A stretch of 51,548 nt of DNA, taken from sequence record NC_079180.1; one strand, written 5' to 3'. The notes beneath the pieces are model-generated. The model was not told the DNA's origin. It was given only the letters and a program-made list of their open reading frames with translations, and made no database searches. Positions 1 through 20,450 of the stretch are shown one piece after another. Numbering within the stretch: the stretch's first letter is position 1; the number at the start of each line of letters is the position of its first letter. This DNA comes from Escherichia phage SKA49. The position numbers and the translations under genes were made by a program.

Positions 1-170
1 GCTCACTTCGCCCGCTTTATATTATAATTTTATTTTGGGCCAGCGGGGAGGGGAAGTTGTGACATTATTATTTTAAAATTTTTTATCTCCGAGGAGGGGA
101 AGCCCAACGTCCTATCGGACTTAAAATACGGTCCCTACCCCAACTTTTTCCTACAGCCTATCGGCTTTCA
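1..170. repeat. left-end non-coding repeat region
   Basis: G-rich motif GGGGAGGGGAAG at about 45-56 and GAGGAGGGGAAG at 91-102; 12-bp palindromes GTCCTATCGGAC (109-120) and AGCCTATCGGCT (155-166); AT-rich runs; no ORF. Confidence 0.35.
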
Positions 171-250
171 AACAACACCAAGTTAGGCGCTTCGCTTATA
201 AGTCAAGGTCAAAGGCAATCAGAGTACGCTGTTGTAATGTGCTAGTCTCA

Positions 251-270
251 CCATTAGTTGGTTGTGATTA
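251..270 (+). promoter_or_regulatory. variant of the phage promoter-like motif (CCATTAGTTGGTTGTGATT) upstream of the RNAP gene
   Basis: Matches the core CATTAGTTGG-TGTGA shared by seven other intergenic copies; lies 60 nt upstream of the RNAP start. Confidence 0.4.
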
Positions 271-330
271 TGAATAGGCTACGCAAGTCTAATCCGTTTC
301 AGTTAAATCATAATCAATTGGAGACTTATC

Positions 331-2445
331 ATGACTAACGAAGAATACCGTGCACTGGCTGCTGATGGCGCTCGCTTGAAAGAAGAAGGCCAAGGTTGGA
401 AAGACGTGCTCGATACGATGGACCGTTGCAACCAGATGGTAGATGAAATCACCTCCGTTACACAAACCGAAACTAAAACCGAAACTAAATTGGAGACTCG
501 CAAAATGACAACTATCTCAACTCAAACTATCAAATCCGTTGTCCCTGCTATCACTGCTCTGGTATATCGTGCCAAAGAGAAACAGAACTACATGCAGCCT
601 CAGACCTGTGCTATTGCTGCTCTTGCAATCTTTAAGATGATGACCTCATTCACTCGTGATGACGTTGTTCCTGCCATTGCGATGGTTGAGCTGGCTTCTG
701 CTTCTATTGCTGATGCCAACCGCTACAACAACGACTTGAAAGCAATGCACTATGTTGACCCAGCTATCAACCTCATTGGTCTGGCTAAGCACTTCGGCTT
801 CATTACCATGAACGAAGACAAGTCATTCCAACAGACTGACACATGGGTTGAACTGGTTACAACCAAAGACACAGCAGTGCCATTCACTGAGCGTGTTACA
901 TCTGAATCTCGTCGCAAGCCTTTCGTTAAAGGTGGCAAAGTTAAGCCATCCAAAACTTTGAAAGCTGCAATCGAATTCCTGCAAGATACTGAGTACCATG
1001 TGGAGACTGAGATGGTTCGCATCATCCAGTCCATGATTGAACAGCGTACTTATGGTGGCTTGCAGATGCCAGAAGCAATCCAGACTGAACTCCATGTTTG
1101 GAACAATGCTGTAGCAATGATGAATCAGGACACACTGTATTCTGACTACTTTGCTGACAACCGTGGTCGCCTGTATCATGTAGCATGTGCTGGTCCTAAC
1201 CCACAATCCTCTGACTTTGCTCGTTGCTTGTATTCTCACAATGTTGAGAACATCGTTAAGAAGTTTAACGAAGATGGTTCTACTACCATTGCATACAACA
1301 TGTTCATGGCAGAGCTGGAAGATATTTCCGGTGGTGAATGGTGCAGTGCTAAACGTCTGACCTATGTTGCTCAGAATCCAGCTGGTTCACTTGCTCGCAT
1401 GATGAACATGCCTAAAGCTGAACGTCCTTCTAAGCCATTCACTTATGTTCGTCTGGCTCTGGATTGGTTCAAGTTTGAGACTACAGGTGAATGCGATTCT
1501 CGTGTAGGCTTTGGCTTAGATGCTAAATGTTCTGGTACTCAATATCTGGCATTCATTGCTGGTAACATGGAAATGGCTCGTGCAACAGGTCTGGTTGATT
1601 CTGAGACTAAAGCATCTGACCCATACCAGTTGAGTCTTCGTGAACTGTTGAAGCTGCTGGACAAGTCTTCAATGAAACCTTCTGTTGAAATCATGGATGA
1701 ATTCTTGAACCCTAAAGCTGGTCGTAAGTTTATCAAAACTCCGTACATGGCTATTCAATATGGTGGTGGTAAAGCTGCATTAACTGGTTCATCTGACTTC
1801 ATTAGCTACATGACAGAAGCGCTCCAGATTCCTATGGAGAAAGCTGAGGCATTTGCTGAACTGTGTGTAGAAGCAATCCATAACGCATTGGGTGCTAAGA
1901 TTAACATGTTCATCGAGAAAGCTGCTGATGCTGCATACAACCGTTGTGTTGAACTCAACAAAGAGTACATCACATATCGTCACACTGATGGTCAGGTTGT
2001 AATGAAGCCTTGCTTCCCATCTCGTGAAATCTGTGAGGCATTCAGCATTCGTGTTGACTCACAAACTCGTGTTATCTTTGGCCAGATTCAGGAGAATAAG
2101 CCTTGGACCATTCGTGAATCCAATCCAACTAAAGAAGAATTCAAGCGTACTTTCGTTGTTAACTACATTCAAGGTATTGACGCATTGGTTGCTCGTACTG
2201 TTGCAGTTAAGGCTAAAGAAGCTGGTCTTCGTGGCTTCACTTCAATCCATGATTGTTTCCGTTGCTGTCTGGCAGATGCTCCACGTATGATGGAAGTTAT
2301 TCGTGCAGCATATGTTGAAATCTTTGTAACCAACAATCAATTCGAGAATCTGTCTAAGCAACTCGGTGGCATTCAGATGTATCATGAGAACATCGTAACC
2401 GAAGAGCTTCTGATGAGCGAACACGCTTACTACTTCTGTCAATAA
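331..2445 (+). CDS. T7-type single-subunit DNA-dependent RNA polymerase (compact, 704 aa)
   Basis: Motif A-like FGLDAKCSGTQYLA, motif B-like GRKFIKTPYMAIQYGGG, motif C TSIHDCF with catalytic Asp; GGAG RBS before ATG. Confidence 0.85.
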   Translation: MTNEEYRALAADGARLKEEGQGWKDVLDTMDRCNQMVDEITSVTQTETKTETKLETRKMTTISTQTIKSVVPAITALVYRAKEKQNYMQPQTCAIAALAIFKMMTSFTRDDVVPAIAMVELASASIADANRYNNDLKAMHYVDPAINLIGLAKHFGFITMNEDKSFQQTDTWVELVTTKDTAVPFTERVTSESRRKPFVKGGKVKPSKTLKAAIEFLQDTEYHVETEMVRIIQSMIEQRTYGGLQMPEAIQTELHVWNNAVAMMNQDTLYSDYFADNRGRLYHVACAGPNPQSSDFARCLYSHNVENIVKKFNEDGSTTIAYNMFMAELEDISGGEWCSAKRLTYVAQNPAGSLARMMNMPKAERPSKPFTYVRLALDWFKFETTGECDSRVGFGLDAKCSGTQYLAFIAGNMEMARATGLVDSETKASDPYQLSLRELLKLLDKSSMKPSVEIMDEFLNPKAGRKFIKTPYMAIQYGGGKAALTGSSDFISYMTEALQIPMEKAEAFAELCVEAIHNALGAKINMFIEKAADAAYNRCVELNKEYITYRHTDGQVVMKPCFPSREICEAFSIRVDSQTRVIFGQIQENKPWTIRESNPTKEEFKRTFVVNYIQGIDALVARTVAVKAKEAGLRGFTSIHDCFRCCLADAPRMMEVIRAAYVEIFVTNNQFENLSKQLGGIQMYHENIVTEELLMSEHAYYFCQ

Positions 2446-2453
2446 GAGAAACA

Positions 2454-2497
2454 GGGCTGTCATCGAAAGGTGATGGCCCTTTCTTTATTCTTTATTA
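2454..2497 (+). terminator. intrinsic terminator after RNAP gene
   Basis: Hairpin GGGCTGTCAT-CGAAAG-GTGATGGCCC (with G-T pairs) followed by TTTCTTTATTCTTTATT. Confidence 0.55.
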
Positions 2498-2525
2498 ATT
2501 AAATCCTTTAATTCCCAATATTCAA

Positions 2526-3300
2526 GCAATATTGCTGCATGTAATATTGTTTCAATATTCGACATTAGTTGGATGTGAAGTAACAGAATACGGAGAAGTA
2601 TTCCGCATGTCATGTTGAATCATTCTAGAAACATTCAGCATGTCAGCTTTGAGTTACAGCGTTGTAATGATGTGGCAATCATTGAACTCCCTGGGAAGGC
2701 CACCTACAGTTCCAGCAACCATGACTTAGAGTAGGAATATCTATCCGAAACTTGGACTTCATTGTAGTTTGGTGTGCTTCATCGTGAGAAAGGTAGCGAC
2801 AACTTTCATAAGCAAATAGCATGACTCATTCCAGACAAACTTGGAACAGCTCATGTAGTACCAGCATGTTCAATTGCGACAATATTGCTCCATCTCCTAT
2901 TATAAAGGCCCACCCACAAGCCGGGAGATAACTTTGGTAATATTGGAACTTTTGGACATGCTTCTTTCTTTCAATCAGAATTCGAAAGAAGAGAAGAGTC
3001 GGAGCAAAGCCTCTCGTTTACACGCAGAAGCCGCCCCGATTTTGAGCAACAAATATTGTGACAATATTGTCGCAGTATGGCATGTAAATATTGCTACAAA
3101 TTGGCATGTTAGAATGTGGCAGAATTGTTAGAGGACTAATCACCTCGAAGATACAATCGTCTGCCAATCTGGCATGTTAATTTTGTAACAGTATTTGTGC
3201 CAATTTCGCATGTAGTATTTAACCCAATATTCTTGCAACCCGCATGAATACTGGCTTTCAGCCAAGCGAAGGCTTTATCATCGCATGTAATATTGTGACA
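2526..3300. repeat. cluster of AT-rich palindromic motifs (CAATATTG, GACAATATTGTC) and GCATGTAATATTG-like repeats
   Basis: CAATATTG or near copies at about 2527, 2545, 2877, 3049, 3058, 3087, 3294, 3302; (G/C)GCATGT(A/T)A-TATT at about 2536, 3080, 3102, 3169, 3205, 3282. Confidence 0.5.
2562..2580 (+). promoter_or_regulatory. phage promoter-like motif ACATTAGTTGGATGTGAAG
   Basis: Conserved about 19-bp motif in an intergenic position, one of eight copies. Confidence 0.55.
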
Positions 3301-3508
3301 ATATTGGGATAAAACCCTTTATTTAAATCATTTAGTTTATTAATTAAATGGTCGGTTTTCTGTACATAGGTATTCAGCTGTTTGTGCCAAATACAAACAA
3401 GTTGGCTGCTTCTACAGAACTCCAGTGCTACAAATGTTCGTGCCAATCTGCTGCAATTTATCTCATTTGGCGGGGTAATATTGTATTAGGTTGGTACGTC
3501 ATTATTTC

Positions 3509-3529
3509 GATTAGTTGCATGTGAATAAG
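3509..3529 (+). promoter_or_regulatory. degenerate promoter-like motif GATTAGTTGCATGTGAATAAG
   Basis: Partial match to the ACATTAGTTGGATGTGAAG consensus, upstream of the early gene cluster. Confidence 0.3.
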
Positions 3530-3717
3530 ACCAAATCTCTGTAAATTCTGTGACAGATTTTAGAGAGATTATGTCTCCAAGCTAATCATTGTAGTTTTTA
3601 GACACTTTGTGTGTCACATATATAGCCTGTGAAAAACGTGTGGTATATTGCTGGATTGCGACGCGCCCACCAGACTAGGAAGTCACTGACGGCGGCACAC
3701 ACAGGAATACTATATAA

Positions 3718-3780
3718 CTCCCTACAACTTTAAGGTGGATTGAGGTAAGACAAGACCTCCACAATCGTTCTGTAGGGAGT
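3718..3780 (+). promoter_or_regulatory. 9-bp inverted repeat (CTCCCTACA ... TGTAGGGAG) with nested GTGGA/TCCAC stem, upstream of first early gene
   Basis: Perfect reverse-complement arms 3718-3726 and 3772-3780 separated by 45 nt; candidate RNA structure or processing site. Confidence 0.35.
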
Positions 3781-3804
3781 TTTCCTTTAACTTTGGAGAA
3801 TAAA

Positions 3805-4053
3805 ATGGATACTGTGATTAAAGCTGCTTGTTTCAAAGACCTGCAAGATGGTCAAATCTTCACTGTTCGTTCTGTGAAGTGGATTAAAGTAAATGAGTCA
3901 GATAAGTACAATGCTGTAAAGTTCTTTGATTCAAGCAAAGCATGTACTTTTAGCGACAATATTGTTGTCAATATTGAAGTCGAATTAATTCCTGATGACG
4001 GAGATGTTGAAGCAACTCTTCGTAACACTGCTGGATATAACGAGGGATTCTAA
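3805..4053 (+). CDS. hypothetical early protein (82 aa)
   Basis: ATG with GGAG RBS 6 nt upstream; track ORF begins at TTG 3793. Confidence 0.6.
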   Translation: MDTVIKAACFKDLQDGQIFTVRSVKWIKVNESDKYNAVKFFDSSKACTFSDNIVVNIEVELIPDDGDVEATLRNTAGYNEGF

Positions 4054-6994: not shown

Positions 6995-7013
6995 ACATTA
7001 GTTGGATATGAGG
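6995..7013 (+). promoter_or_regulatory. phage promoter-like motif ACATTAGTTGGATATGAGG
   Basis: Conserved motif about 70 nt upstream of gene 7084. Confidence 0.55.
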
Positions 7014-10334: not shown

Positions 10335-10353
10335 ACATTAGTGGGATTTGATT
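10335..10353 (+). promoter_or_regulatory. phage promoter-like motif ACATTAGTGGGATTTGATT
   Basis: Preceded by CTGAA as in other copies; intergenic. Confidence 0.45.
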
Positions 10354-10476: not shown

Positions 10477-10495
10477 ACATTAATTGGAATTGAAG
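10477..10495 (+). promoter_or_regulatory. phage promoter-like motif ACATTAATTGGAATTGAAG
   Basis: Preceded by TCTGAA; intergenic, second copy in the same spacer. Confidence 0.45.
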
Positions 10496-12465: not shown

Positions 12466-12484
12466 ACATTAGTTGGATGTGGAA
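12466..12484 (+). promoter_or_regulatory. phage promoter-like motif ACATTAGTTGGATGTGGAA
   Basis: Best consensus copy; about 75 nt upstream of the codon-optimised gene 12560. Confidence 0.6.
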
Positions 12485-20205: not shown

Positions 20206-20450
20206 TGGTTGTTGTATCTATATTCGACAAAGTGGACCATTTACACTTTGTCAATAAAGGCGAAGACGCACGGGAAGCTGTGCTGTCTGTAATTACCGAG
20301 AATGCTGAAACATTATTTGGAAGTGATTCTGCTACCAATTCAGTGTATCAGGCATTCATTAAAACTTTATCTGGTCCTGTCGTCAATGAGCAAGAGTTAA
20401 TCTCTTGTATGAACGACCTGGACTTCTCCCTAGTTATCACTCAACTGTAA
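20205..20450 (+). CDS. hypothetical protein (81 aa)
   Basis: ATG overlaps polymerase stop; track ORF. Confidence 0.5.
   Translation: MVVVSIFDKVDHLHFVNKGEDAREAVLSVITENAETLFGSDSATNSVYQAFIKTLSGPVVNEQELISCMNDLDFSLVITQL

What the first reader, a model, noticed from the sequence alone, without database searches (positions are those of the whole stretch)
331..2445. Compact 704-aa single-subunit RNAP with an N-terminal TETK tandem repeat
The catalytic motifs are present but the protein is about 180 residues shorter than T7 RNAP, implying a reduced N-terminal promoter-binding domain. Near the N-terminus a short peptide repeat (TQTETKTETKLETRK) is encoded by tandem ACCGAAACTAAA units at about 467-490, which could be a slippage-prone or linker region.
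Basis: seen in the sequence. Interest (0 to 1): 0.4.

Follow-up and report, generated by a model that had tools for sequence, protein, structure and literature searches.

The report
Phage RNA polymerase with fused leader peptide
This is the already annotated T7-like RNA polymerase gene of coliphage SKA49: a stripped-down 646-residue enzyme typical of its phage family, carrying an extra 58-residue N-terminal tail that appears to be a small upstream gene fused in frame, with the "TETK" repeat forming the fusion joint.

Summary
The ORF 331-2445 encodes 704 aa with all single-subunit RNAP catalytic motifs. ACCGAAACTAAA occurs twice in tandem, at 466-489.

The window is Escherichia phage SKA49 (Chaseviridae, Carltongylesvirus), and the protein is identical to its annotated "RNA polymerase".

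- The family norm is 626-650 aa. The conserved enzyme here is residues 59-704.
- About 152 residues stand in for T7 RNAP residues 1-316. No Pfam RPOL_N domain is detected.
- A shortened intercalating hairpin and a specificity-loop-sized hairpin region are retained.

Residues 1-58 are not part of an RNAP N-terminal domain.
- They occur in only about 9-10 phages.
- They are under coding selection.
- Residues 1-45 are homologous to a stand-alone 62-aa ORF that lies directly upstream of the RNAP gene on a metagenomic contig.

The TETK repeat sits exactly where that homology ends, so it is the fusion joint or linker. It has two copies in every carrier examined, so there is no sign of slippage.

The ancestral Shine-Dalgarno sequence and ATG (505) survive in frame, so a second 646-aa isoform is possible but untested. 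The function of the tail is unknown; an RNAP accessory role is only inferred.

The parts
251..267 (+). Promoter-like motif CCATTAGTTGGTTGTGA, 64 nt upstream of the ATG. It belongs to the family CATTAGTTGGATGTGA.
   Evidence: There are 8 copies, all on the + strand. At <=2 mismatches the count is 7 (+) against 0 (-). At <=3 mismatches 9 are observed against 0.28 in shuffles. The motif is conserved at this position in other genera. The same motif at the 2562 site is annotated in OL960574.1 as 'promoter similar to promoter of phiEcoM-GJ1'.
317..326 (+). First copy of ATTGGAGACT, the Shine-Dalgarno GGAG lying 7 nt before ATG 331.
   Evidence: Read from the sequence. It is homologous to the SD/leader that directly precedes the RNAP ATG in ST32, GJ1 and other short-form phages.
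331..2445 (+). RNA polymerase ORF, 704 aa, identical to Escherichia phage SKA49 YP_010844746.1.
331..504 (+). 58-codon N-terminal extension, found only in a subset of Carltongylesvirus phages.
   Evidence: Relatives such as ST32 and PYps16N match only from window 490 onward, and the short-form RNAPs that are annotated (ST32, MLP1) are 646 aa. tblastn finds the extension only at RNAP N-termini in 11 phage records. Variable sites among 8 carriers fall on codon positions 4/1/15, binomial p 1.7e-4.
331..465 (+). Codons 1-45, homologous to the stand-alone 62-aa ORF P0115. Two helices are predicted at low confidence.
   Evidence: phmmer against 1.84 billion proteins gives one hit, E 4.1e-5. BLASTP shows 63% identity over 35 aa. 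tblastn of P0115 against phages hits only these N-termini, E 1e-7. P0115 lies at 461-649, directly upstream of a 641-aa RNAP gene at 722-2647 on L027. The DNA alignment runs through motif, leader, SD, ATG and codons 1-45. Helices 3-16 and 24-44 have pLDDT below 50.
466..489 (+). Tandem repeat 2 x ACCGAAACTAAA (TETKTETK). It is the fusion joint and part of the T/E/K-rich linker.
   Evidence: It begins where homology to L027 ends. Copy number is 2 in all 8 carriers aligned.
489..507 (+). Second copy of ATTGGAGACT plus the in-frame ATG 505 (M59). This is the retained ancestral ribosome-binding site and start of the 646-aa form.
   Evidence: The string TTGGAGACTCGCAAAATG is invariant in all 8 long forms. 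It aligns with TTGGAGACTTAC-AAATG, which is the annotated start in ST32. Use as an internal start is inferred, not shown.
505..960 (+). Reduced N-terminal domain of the conserved enzyme (residues 59-210), standing in for T7 RNAP 1-316.
802..834 (+). Short beta-hairpin (residues 158-168) aligned with the T7 intercalating hairpin region. It is about 9 residues shorter.
   Evidence: DSSP strands 158-160 and 165-168. hhalign places window 'GFITMNE---DKSFQQTD' on T7 'GMVSLHRQNAGVVGQDSETIEL'.
1519..1521 (+). Motif A catalytic Asp, D397 (equivalent to T7 D537).
1723..1767 (+). Motif B, RKFIKTPYMAIQYGG. R465, K469 and Y477 correspond to T7 R627, K631 and Y639.
2008..2121 (+). Region collinear with the T7 specificity loop (T7 about 739-770). 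It is of similar length and is predicted as beta-hairpins.
2248..2253 (+). Motif C, H640-D641 (equivalent to T7 H811-D812).
2453..2490 (+). Intrinsic terminator after the RNAP gene: 12-bp stem, 4-nt loop, then a T-run.
   Evidence: The same element is annotated as a rho-independent terminator in SA91KD.

Best explanation
The ORF is gene 1 of a GJ1-like myovirus (Escherichia phage SKA49, Chaseviridae). It encodes a T7-type single-subunit DNA-dependent RNA polymerase that presumably transcribes phage genes from short strand-specific promoters; the candidate is CATTAGTTGGATGTGA.

The protein has two parts.

(1) Residues 59-704 are the conserved enzyme.
- It is a minimal version of the T7 fold with all catalytic motifs, a specificity-loop-sized hairpin region and a shortened intercalating hairpin.
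- Only about half of the T7 N-terminal domain remains.
- The thumb region is shortened, and a T7 fingers insertion is absent.

(2) Residues 1-58 are a later add-on.
- A small gene once lay, as it still does on contig L027, between the leader and the RNAP gene.
- That gene lost its last ~12 codons, its stop codon, the intergenic hairpin and the second promoter-like motif.
- It became joined in frame to the polymerase through a new 24-nt T/E/K-coding tandem duplication next to the RNAP's own ribosome-binding site.

Ribosomes that start at ATG 331 must therefore make a 704-aa fusion: a two-helix module, a flexible TETK linker, then the polymerase. Because the old SD and ATG (505) are intact and in frame, the plain 646-aa enzyme may also be made.

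Shown: homology, synteny, coding selection, fixed copy number and domain reduction.
Inferred: the direction (fusion rather than fission), internal initiation, and that the fused module acts with the polymerase.
For: Identity: 94-97% nt identity to Carltongylesvirus RNAP genes. The protein equals SKA49 YP_010844746.1 on a 51,548-nt contig.

Enzyme:
- PF00940 and PHROG 414 match.
- The AF2 model has pLDDT 88.
- The catalytic residues are invariant.

Family norm is 626-650 aa: about 100 of the 114 homologues are 604-667 aa, and the close ones start 5-9 residues before the first conserved helix.

Domain budget against T7: N-terminal -164, thumb region -39, rest -34, total -237.

The extension is restricted to 11 phage records. 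It is coding, with variable sites on codon positions 4/1/15 (p 1.7e-4).

Stand-alone homologue P0115 lies directly upstream of a 641-aa RNAP gene. The DNA alignment shows the shared motif, leader, SD and codons 1-45, then a break exactly at the repeat.

The SD is duplicated (317-326 and 489-498), and ATG 505 corresponds to the annotated start in ST32.

In the AF2 model residues 45-61 have no predicted secondary structure and low confidence.
Against: - Only one stand-alone homologue is known, on a single 3.3-kb Logan contig. The JGI metagenome and IMG/VR scans added none. Polarity therefore rests on parsimony: other genera have the leader directly before the RNAP, and fusions need fewer steps than fissions.
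- Long and short forms are intermixed on the core-gene tree. TH23 (long) groups with GJ1/PYps (short), and the ST32 group (short) nests among long forms. Recombination or repeated loss must be invoked.
- No expression data exist for either start.
- The low pLDDT of residues 1-61 may simply reflect the shallow alignment there.
- The tail is absent from most relatives, so it is dispensable. Its function could be unrelated to transcription.
- No Pfam or PHROG family matches it convincingly. The best is phrog_14095, E 0.016, function unknown.
Confidence: 0.75

Rival explanations
1. Mis-called start. The true RNAP begins at ATG 505 (646 aa, as in ST32 and GJ1), and 331-504 is only an untranslated leader or an irrelevant upstream reading frame.
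For: The annotated short-form relatives (ST32, MLP1) start at the M59 equivalent, and GJ1 gp01 is listed as 648 aa. A good SD (GGAG, 9-nt spacer) precedes ATG 505. The family norm is about 640 aa.
Against: ATG 331 has an equally good SD (GGAG, 7-nt spacer). That SD is the one homologous to the functional SD of the short forms and of the L027 small ORF. There is no stop codon between 331 and 505. Variable sites among 8 phages are 15/20 at third codon positions. The peptide is homologous to a real stand-alone ORF. The other two frames of 331-504 contain stops.
Confidence: 0.1
2. The TETK-coding repeat is a slippage-prone (contingency) tract whose copy number varies and tunes or switches the polymerase.
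For: It is a perfect 12-nt tandem duplication in an A-rich context. The unit length is a multiple of 3, so changes would stay in frame.
Against: There are only two copies. All 8 carriers aligned have the same 174-nt extension. The cluster members read are 646, 648 or 704 aa, with none at +/-4 aa. The other carriers examined have an imperfect first unit (TCC), which makes slippage less likely. 14 other comparable mini-repeats exist in the window.
Confidence: 0.04
3. Fission rather than fusion. The 704-aa form is ancestral in this lineage. The short forms arose by deletion between the two ATTGGAGACT copies, and the L027 arrangement arose by splitting.
For: A direct repeat of 10 nt flanks the extra segment, which is the classic substrate for deletion. 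Long forms are paraphyletic on the core tree, with Mangalitsa and TH26 basal to a short-form subclade.
Against: Every other genus sampled has the leader directly in front of a ~630-650-aa RNAP with no trace of the module. All short forms share one junction haplotype with linked SNPs (ACTACTATCAC...), which suggests one allele spread by recombination rather than many independent deletions. Splitting would require gaining a stop, a hairpin, a promoter-like motif and an SD. Loss in some Carltongylesvirus lineages by repeat-mediated deletion remains quite possible and is compatible with the main explanation.
Confidence: 0.15

Closest known systems
Chaseviridae (GJ1-like) RNA polymerase, e.g. phiEcoM-GJ1 gp01 (648 aa) and ST32 gp1 (646 aa)
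   Same: Residues 59-704 are the same protein: 89-97% nt identity, the same position as first gene next to the left end or inside the direct terminal repeat, and the same leader, SD and terminator.
   Different: This allele, shared with Bp10, Mangalitsa, JL1, 2KOFFS, TH23/26/28/33/37 and two metagenomic 704-aa proteins (P0001, P0146), carries 58 extra N-terminal residues. None of the papers I could search or read mentions this. The 2008 GJ1 paper was not available.
Bacteriophage T7 RNA polymerase (883 aa; PDB 1CEZ, 1QLN, 3E2E)
   Different: The core is 237 residues shorter. There is no detectable RPOL_N domain. No counterpart of T7 1-72 is found. The AT-rich-loop region is apparently about 12 residues shorter, though that alignment is only P 0.04. 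T7 residues ~150-213 are compressed to a few residues. The thumb region is about 39 residues shorter and a T7 fingers insertion (about 585-618) is absent. Sequence identity is about 17-19%.
Bacteriophage N4 RNAPII (heterodimer RNAP1 + RNAP2, PDB 6DT7), the described 'minimal' T7-like RNAP
   Different: The protein here is a single polypeptide. T7 is the better sequence match (E 1.9e-18 against 6.7e-7). A specificity-loop-sized region is kept, so autonomous promoter recognition is plausible.
In-frame internal initiation giving two isoforms (e.g. T7 gene 4A/4B; from my own knowledge)
   Same: An intact SD plus ATG lies inside the ORF, in frame. [quoted passage not shown]
   Different: Purely inferred here; no expression data.

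Membership tests
[quoted passage not shown] | Match to PF00940 above the gathering score | tested here: met
   71.2 bits against a cut-off of 22, residues 381-679. All 114 homologues but two carry PF00940.
[quoted passage not shown] | Catalytic motifs: motif A Asp, motif B R/K/Y, motif C His-Asp | tested here: met
   D397, R465/K469/Y477 and H640-D641 align with T7 D537, R627/K631/Y639 and H811-D812. They are invariant in 68 sequences.
[quoted passage not shown] | Right-hand pol I-type fold shared with T7 and mitochondrial RNAPs | tested here: met
   [not shown]
[quoted passage not shown] | T7-type N-terminal domain (Pfam RPOL_N PF14700) | tested here: not met
   No PF14700 hit for the full protein at E<=1 or for residues 59-240 at E<=10. 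None of the 114 homologues has it precomputed, whereas most T7 relatives retrieved do. Only the C-terminal third of the domain aligns with confidence (window 146-240 on T7 214-340).
[quoted passage not shown] | Promoter-recognition elements: specificity loop, intercalating hairpin, AT-rich recognition loop | tested here: inconclusive
   The specificity-loop region is collinear, of similar length and predicted as beta-hairpins. The intercalating hairpin aligns but is about 9 residues shorter. The AT-rich loop region aligns only at P 0.04, with a ~12-residue gap.
[quoted passage not shown] | Promoter-specific, factor-independent transcription | not testable with these tools
   Only a candidate promoter motif is available. 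ICTV states that Chaseviridae promoters are not yet identified.
Chaseviridae / Carltongylesvirus gene-1 RNA polymerase | High identity and synteny with GJ1/ST32/Mangalitsa gene 1 | tested here: met
   50 phage records cover >=80% of the gene at up to 96.8% identity. The protein is identical to SKA49 YP_010844746.1. The upstream leader and downstream terminator and motif are the same.
Gene fusion of neighbouring genes ('Rosetta stone' pair) | The two parts exist as separate, adjacent genes in another genome, with significant homology to each part | tested here: met
   P0115 (62 aa) and a 641-aa RNAP are adjacent on L027. Homology is E 4.1e-5 library-wide and E 1e-7 against phages. The RNAP is 73% identical (P0031). 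Only one such genome was found.
Slippage-prone simple-sequence contingency locus | Repeat copy number differs among closely related isolates | tested here: not met
   Two units in all 8 carriers aligned. No length variants appear among the cluster members read.
N4 RNAPII-type minimal heterodimeric RNAP | Enzyme split into two polypeptides | tested here: not met
   A single uninterrupted ORF. The structural similarity is real but lower than to T7 and mtRNAP.

The most novel reading that the evidence does not exclude
The 58-residue tail is a captured RNAP cofactor. The stand-alone 62-aa protein of L027-type phages would bind or regulate the minimal polymerase, for example compensating for its halved promoter-binding domain, or coupling it to a host or phage partner. 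In SKA49-type phages it is tethered by the TETK linker, while internal initiation at M59 supplies untethered enzyme, so the phage makes two functionally different polymerase isoforms from one gene.
Probability: 0.2. Interest if true: 0.55.

Novelty: new variant of a known kind. Interest (0 to 1): 0.3.

Why it matters
The gene itself is ordinary and already annotated. Two things have some value.

First, Chaseviridae polymerases are, at about 640 residues, among the most compact single-chain T7-type RNAPs. They keep the catalytic core and probable specificity elements on half an N-terminal domain. That is of interest for the minimal requirements of promoter-specific initiation and for compact orthogonal expression or in vitro transcription enzymes. 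Their promoters are still officially unidentified (ICTV profile), and the conserved strand-specific motif gives a direct test.

Second, the long/short polymorphism is a natural experiment. The same enzyme exists with and without a fused upstream peptide, in phages that are otherwise about 96% identical in this gene. That pattern points to a candidate RNAP-associated small protein that would not be found by annotation.

Tried and rejected
Searches that gave nothing:
- The word-indexed protein search with the 58-aa tail returned nothing at all. It did not even return the known 704-aa relatives, so it is uninformative.
- Scans of JGI metagenome contigs and IMG/VR with the tail/P0115 alignment found no further stand-alone or fused copies beyond Mangalitsa.
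- Pfam and PHROGs give no credible family for the tail or for P0115. The best is phrog_14095, E 0.016, function unknown.
- tblastn finds no paralogue of the tail elsewhere in the window, and none upstream of the RNAP in the short-form or other-genus loci.
- Rfam shows nothing meaningful in 1-4000.
- RNAalifold on the conserved block upstream of the gene gives weak structure and little covariation.

Alignments that fell short:
- hhalign of the extreme N-terminal region (window 59-160) against T7 1-235 gives only P 0.04. The fates of T7 residues 1-72 and of the AT-rich loop are therefore suggested, not shown.

Ideas considered and not adopted:
- I considered that the repeat units derive from duplication of the SD-proximal leader (GGAGACT..AAA against CGAAACTAAA). 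The similarity is too short to test.

Paper not available: the GJ1 genome paper (PMC2223254) is not held. Its promoter prediction is known to me only through the annotation note in OL960574.1.
Full report
**What is there.**
The ORF at 331-2445 (+) is real and encodes 704 aa.
- It matches Pfam RNA_pol (PF00940) at 71.2 bits against a cut-off of 22, and PHROG 414 'RNA polymerase' at E 1e-97.
- The nucleotide sequence is 94-97% identical to the RNA polymerase genes of Carltongylesvirus phages of the family Chaseviridae, such as Bp10, 2KOFFS, JL1 and Mangalitsa.
- The protein is identical to 'RNA polymerase [Escherichia phage SKA49]' (YP_010844746.1), encoded on a 51,548-nt contig. The window is therefore the published SKA49 genome.
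- The SKA49 paper does not mention the polymerase in its main text (PMC10282059).
- That GJ1-like myoviruses carry a T7-like single-subunit RNAP has been known since 2008. It is a family hallmark (ICTV profile PMC12842549; PMC8762354; PMC6266442).

**The repeat.**
- Two perfect ACCGAAACTAAA units lie at 466-477 and 478-489 (codons 46-53, TETKTETK).
- A degenerate third unit follows, TTGGAGACTCGCAAA (LETRK), which contains a Shine-Dalgarno sequence.
- TRF reports period 12, 2.2 copies, score 52. It is among the top three of 15 mini-repeats in the window.
- In all seven other carriers the first unit starts TCC (Ser), and the last codon is AAA or AAC. The perfect repeat here depends on one substitution.
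- Copy number is two everywhere. Members read from the 90% cluster are 646, 648 or 704 aa only.
- There is no evidence of slippage.

A search of 5.8 billion proteins returned 114 homologues. Nearly all are 604-667 aa, and the close ones begin 5-9 residues before the first conserved helix. The conserved enzyme here is residues 59-704 (646 aa).

All catalytic residues align with T7 and are invariant in the family: D397, R465/K469/Y477 and H640-D641.

I verified a T7 RNAP sequence recalled from memory against PDB 1CEZ (1-883 on 1-883, 2043 bits) and used it for profile alignments.
- Window 211-665 aligns with T7 317-836 (E 3.5e-14).
- With a small T7-family profile the alignment extends to window 146-240 on T7 214-340 (E 2.2e-18).

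The size budget follows:

| Region | T7 residues | Window residues | Difference |
|---|---|---|---|
| N-terminal domain | 1-316 | 59-210 | -164 |
| Thumb region | 317-419 | 211-274 | -39 |
| Remainder | 420-883 | 275-704 | -34 |
| Total | | | -237 |

Other points from these alignments:
- The remainder's loss is mainly a T7 fingers insertion around 585-618.
- The hairpin at 158-168 aligns with the T7 intercalating hairpin but is about 9 residues shorter.
- The specificity-loop region is collinear and of similar length.
- No Pfam RPOL_N domain is detectable.
- The extreme N-terminus aligns with T7 73-175 only marginally (P 0.04). That alignment has a gap where the T7 AT-rich recognition loop lies.
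- T7 domain boundaries are from my own knowledge of the T7 RNAP structures.

So 'reduced promoter-binding domain' is right, and the reduction is larger than 180 residues.

**Residues 1-58 are something else.**
About 30 relatives (ST32, PYps16N, flopper and others) match only from window 490 onward, and those that are annotated there (ST32, MLP1) give a 646-aa RNAP starting at the M59 equivalent; GJ1 gp01 is listed as 648 aa.

The leader and SD that directly precede their ATG are homologous to window 281-330, which is the sequence upstream of ATG 331. They are not homologous to the sequence just before ATG 505. The window thus has about 172-174 extra nucleotides bounded by two copies of ATTGGAGACT (317-326 and 489-498).

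The extra segment occurs only at RNAP N-termini. It is found in 11 phage records (9 distinct phages), plus SKA49 itself and two further 704-aa proteins from metagenomes.

It is translated sequence under purifying selection. Of the 20 variable sites among eight carriers, 15 are third codon positions (p 1.7e-4), and 12 of 14 within codons 1-40. The other two frames have stops.

In the model it forms two low-confidence helices (3-16, 24-44) and a segment without predicted secondary structure (45-61).

**Origin of the tail.**
An exhaustive phmmer search of 1.84 billion representative proteins with the 58 residues gave one hit: P0115, 62 aa, E 4.1e-5.
- BLASTP shows 63% identity over 35 residues.
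- The reciprocal tblastn of P0115 against 50,697 phage records hits only the fused RNAP N-termini, at E 1e-7.
- P0115 is encoded at 461-649 of a 3.3-kb contig (L027, Logan SRR25779722), immediately upstream of a 641-aa RNAP gene at 722-2647 that is 73% identical to the window's.

At the DNA level the window and L027 are collinear through the promoter-like motif, the GGCTACGC...CCGTTTCAG leader, the SD, the ATG and codons 1-45 (...TTACACAA). Homology then stops.
- L027 continues with 12 more codons, a stop, a GC hairpin, a second copy of the motif and a second SD.
- The window has the 24-nt repeat and then the RNAP's SD and ATG.

The TETK repeat is therefore the joint of an in-frame fusion between a small upstream gene and the polymerase.

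Other genera have the leader directly in front of a short RNAP, with no trace of the module. This favours insertion followed by fusion over fission.

On a tree of the 1.9-kb core, long and short forms are intermixed. The two forms also differ by linked substitutions just inside the core. The 5' module therefore behaves as an allele exchanged by recombination, possibly also lost by deletion between the direct repeats.

**How it probably works.**
- Ribosomes initiating at ATG 331 (GGAG, 7-nt spacer) must produce the 704-aa fusion.
- The intact SD (GGAG, 9-nt spacer) and ATG 505 are invariant in all long forms and identical in role to the start used in ST32. They could give the plain 646-aa enzyme as well. 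This is inference only.
- The function of the tail is unknown. Its adjacency to the RNAP gene in one genome and fusion to it in others suggests it acts with the polymerase. However, it is dispensable in most relatives.

**Candidate promoter (side observation).**
The motif CATTAGTTGGATGTGA occurs 7 times on the + strand and never on the - strand at <=2 mismatches. At <=3 mismatches there are 9 sites against 0.28 in shuffles. The best copies are intergenic.

It is conserved upstream and downstream of the RNAP gene in phages of other genera. In SA91KD it is annotated as 'promoter similar to promoter of phiEcoM-GJ1'.

ICTV still lists Chaseviridae promoters as unidentified. A 2020 paper proposed eight consensus promoters for PP101 by PHIRE (PMC6989608).

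**Verdict.**
- The finding is a correctly observed but already annotated gene of a known kind.
- The slippage idea is not supported.
- The reduced N-terminal domain is confirmed and quantified.
- The new element is that the N-terminal 58 residues, including the repeat, are a lineage-specific fusion of an upstream small ORF.

Noticed in passing
window 251-267, 2562-2578, 3508-3524, 6995-7011, 10335-10351, 10477-10493, 12466-12482, 20310-20326 (weaker: 12136, 25898): A strand-specific repeated motif, (CTGAA)ACATTAGTTGGATGTGA, lies mostly in intergenic gaps of the early and middle region, and none is clear in the late region. It is conserved around the RNAP gene in other Chaseviridae genera, and SA91KD annotates it as a GJ1-type promoter. 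It is a likely phage RNAP promoter, still experimentally unverified according to ICTV.
   Followed up: partly
window 2537-2559, 3046-3068, 3283-3305: Three copies of GCATGTAATATTGTGACAATATT, containing the palindrome AATATTG..CAATATT, lie in the ORF-poor stretch 2.45-3.8 kb downstream of the RNAP terminator. They may be an operator or another regulatory site.
   Followed up: no
window ~92-236; also L027 246-385, L002 436-580, L015, L016: A ~140-nt non-coding block upstream of the RNAP promoter-like motif is highly conserved across genera whose RNAPs are only 72-76% identical. It reads GGAGGGGAAGCCCAACGTCCTATCGGACTTAAAATACGGTCCCT...CCTATCGGCTT..AACACCAAGTTAGGCGCT. RNAalifold gives only weak structure and little covariation, and there is no Rfam match. 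It could hold host-RNAP early promoters or a genome-end function.
   Followed up: partly
window 1-3234 equivalent (by comparison with Mangalitsa MN045229.1): In Mangalitsa the whole RNAP gene lies inside a 3,234-bp direct terminal repeat predicted by PhageTerm. PYps23T has an experimentally shown 2.3-kb repeat. The packaged genome would then carry two copies of the polymerase gene, while the window holds only one copy.
   Followed up: no
homologues P0076-P0113 (alignment A2): More distant members of this compact RNAP family carry unrelated 30-65-residue low-complexity N/T/V-rich N-terminal tails (e.g. MNAITNVTANNTTPNTIATH...). A few have 140-220-residue extensions. Variable appendages in front of the first conserved helix therefore recur in the family.
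   Followed up: no
L023 (SA91KD, OL960574.1) ~locus 360-390: SA91KD has 6 extra nucleotides at the RNAP start (ACAAATTGACTAGACTACT against ACAAATGACTACT), which destroys the ATG. Its CDS is annotated from a downstream start as 'similar to C-terminus of GJ1 RNAP'. This is either a sequencing error or a start-site variant.
   Followed up: no
[not shown]
   Followed up: partly
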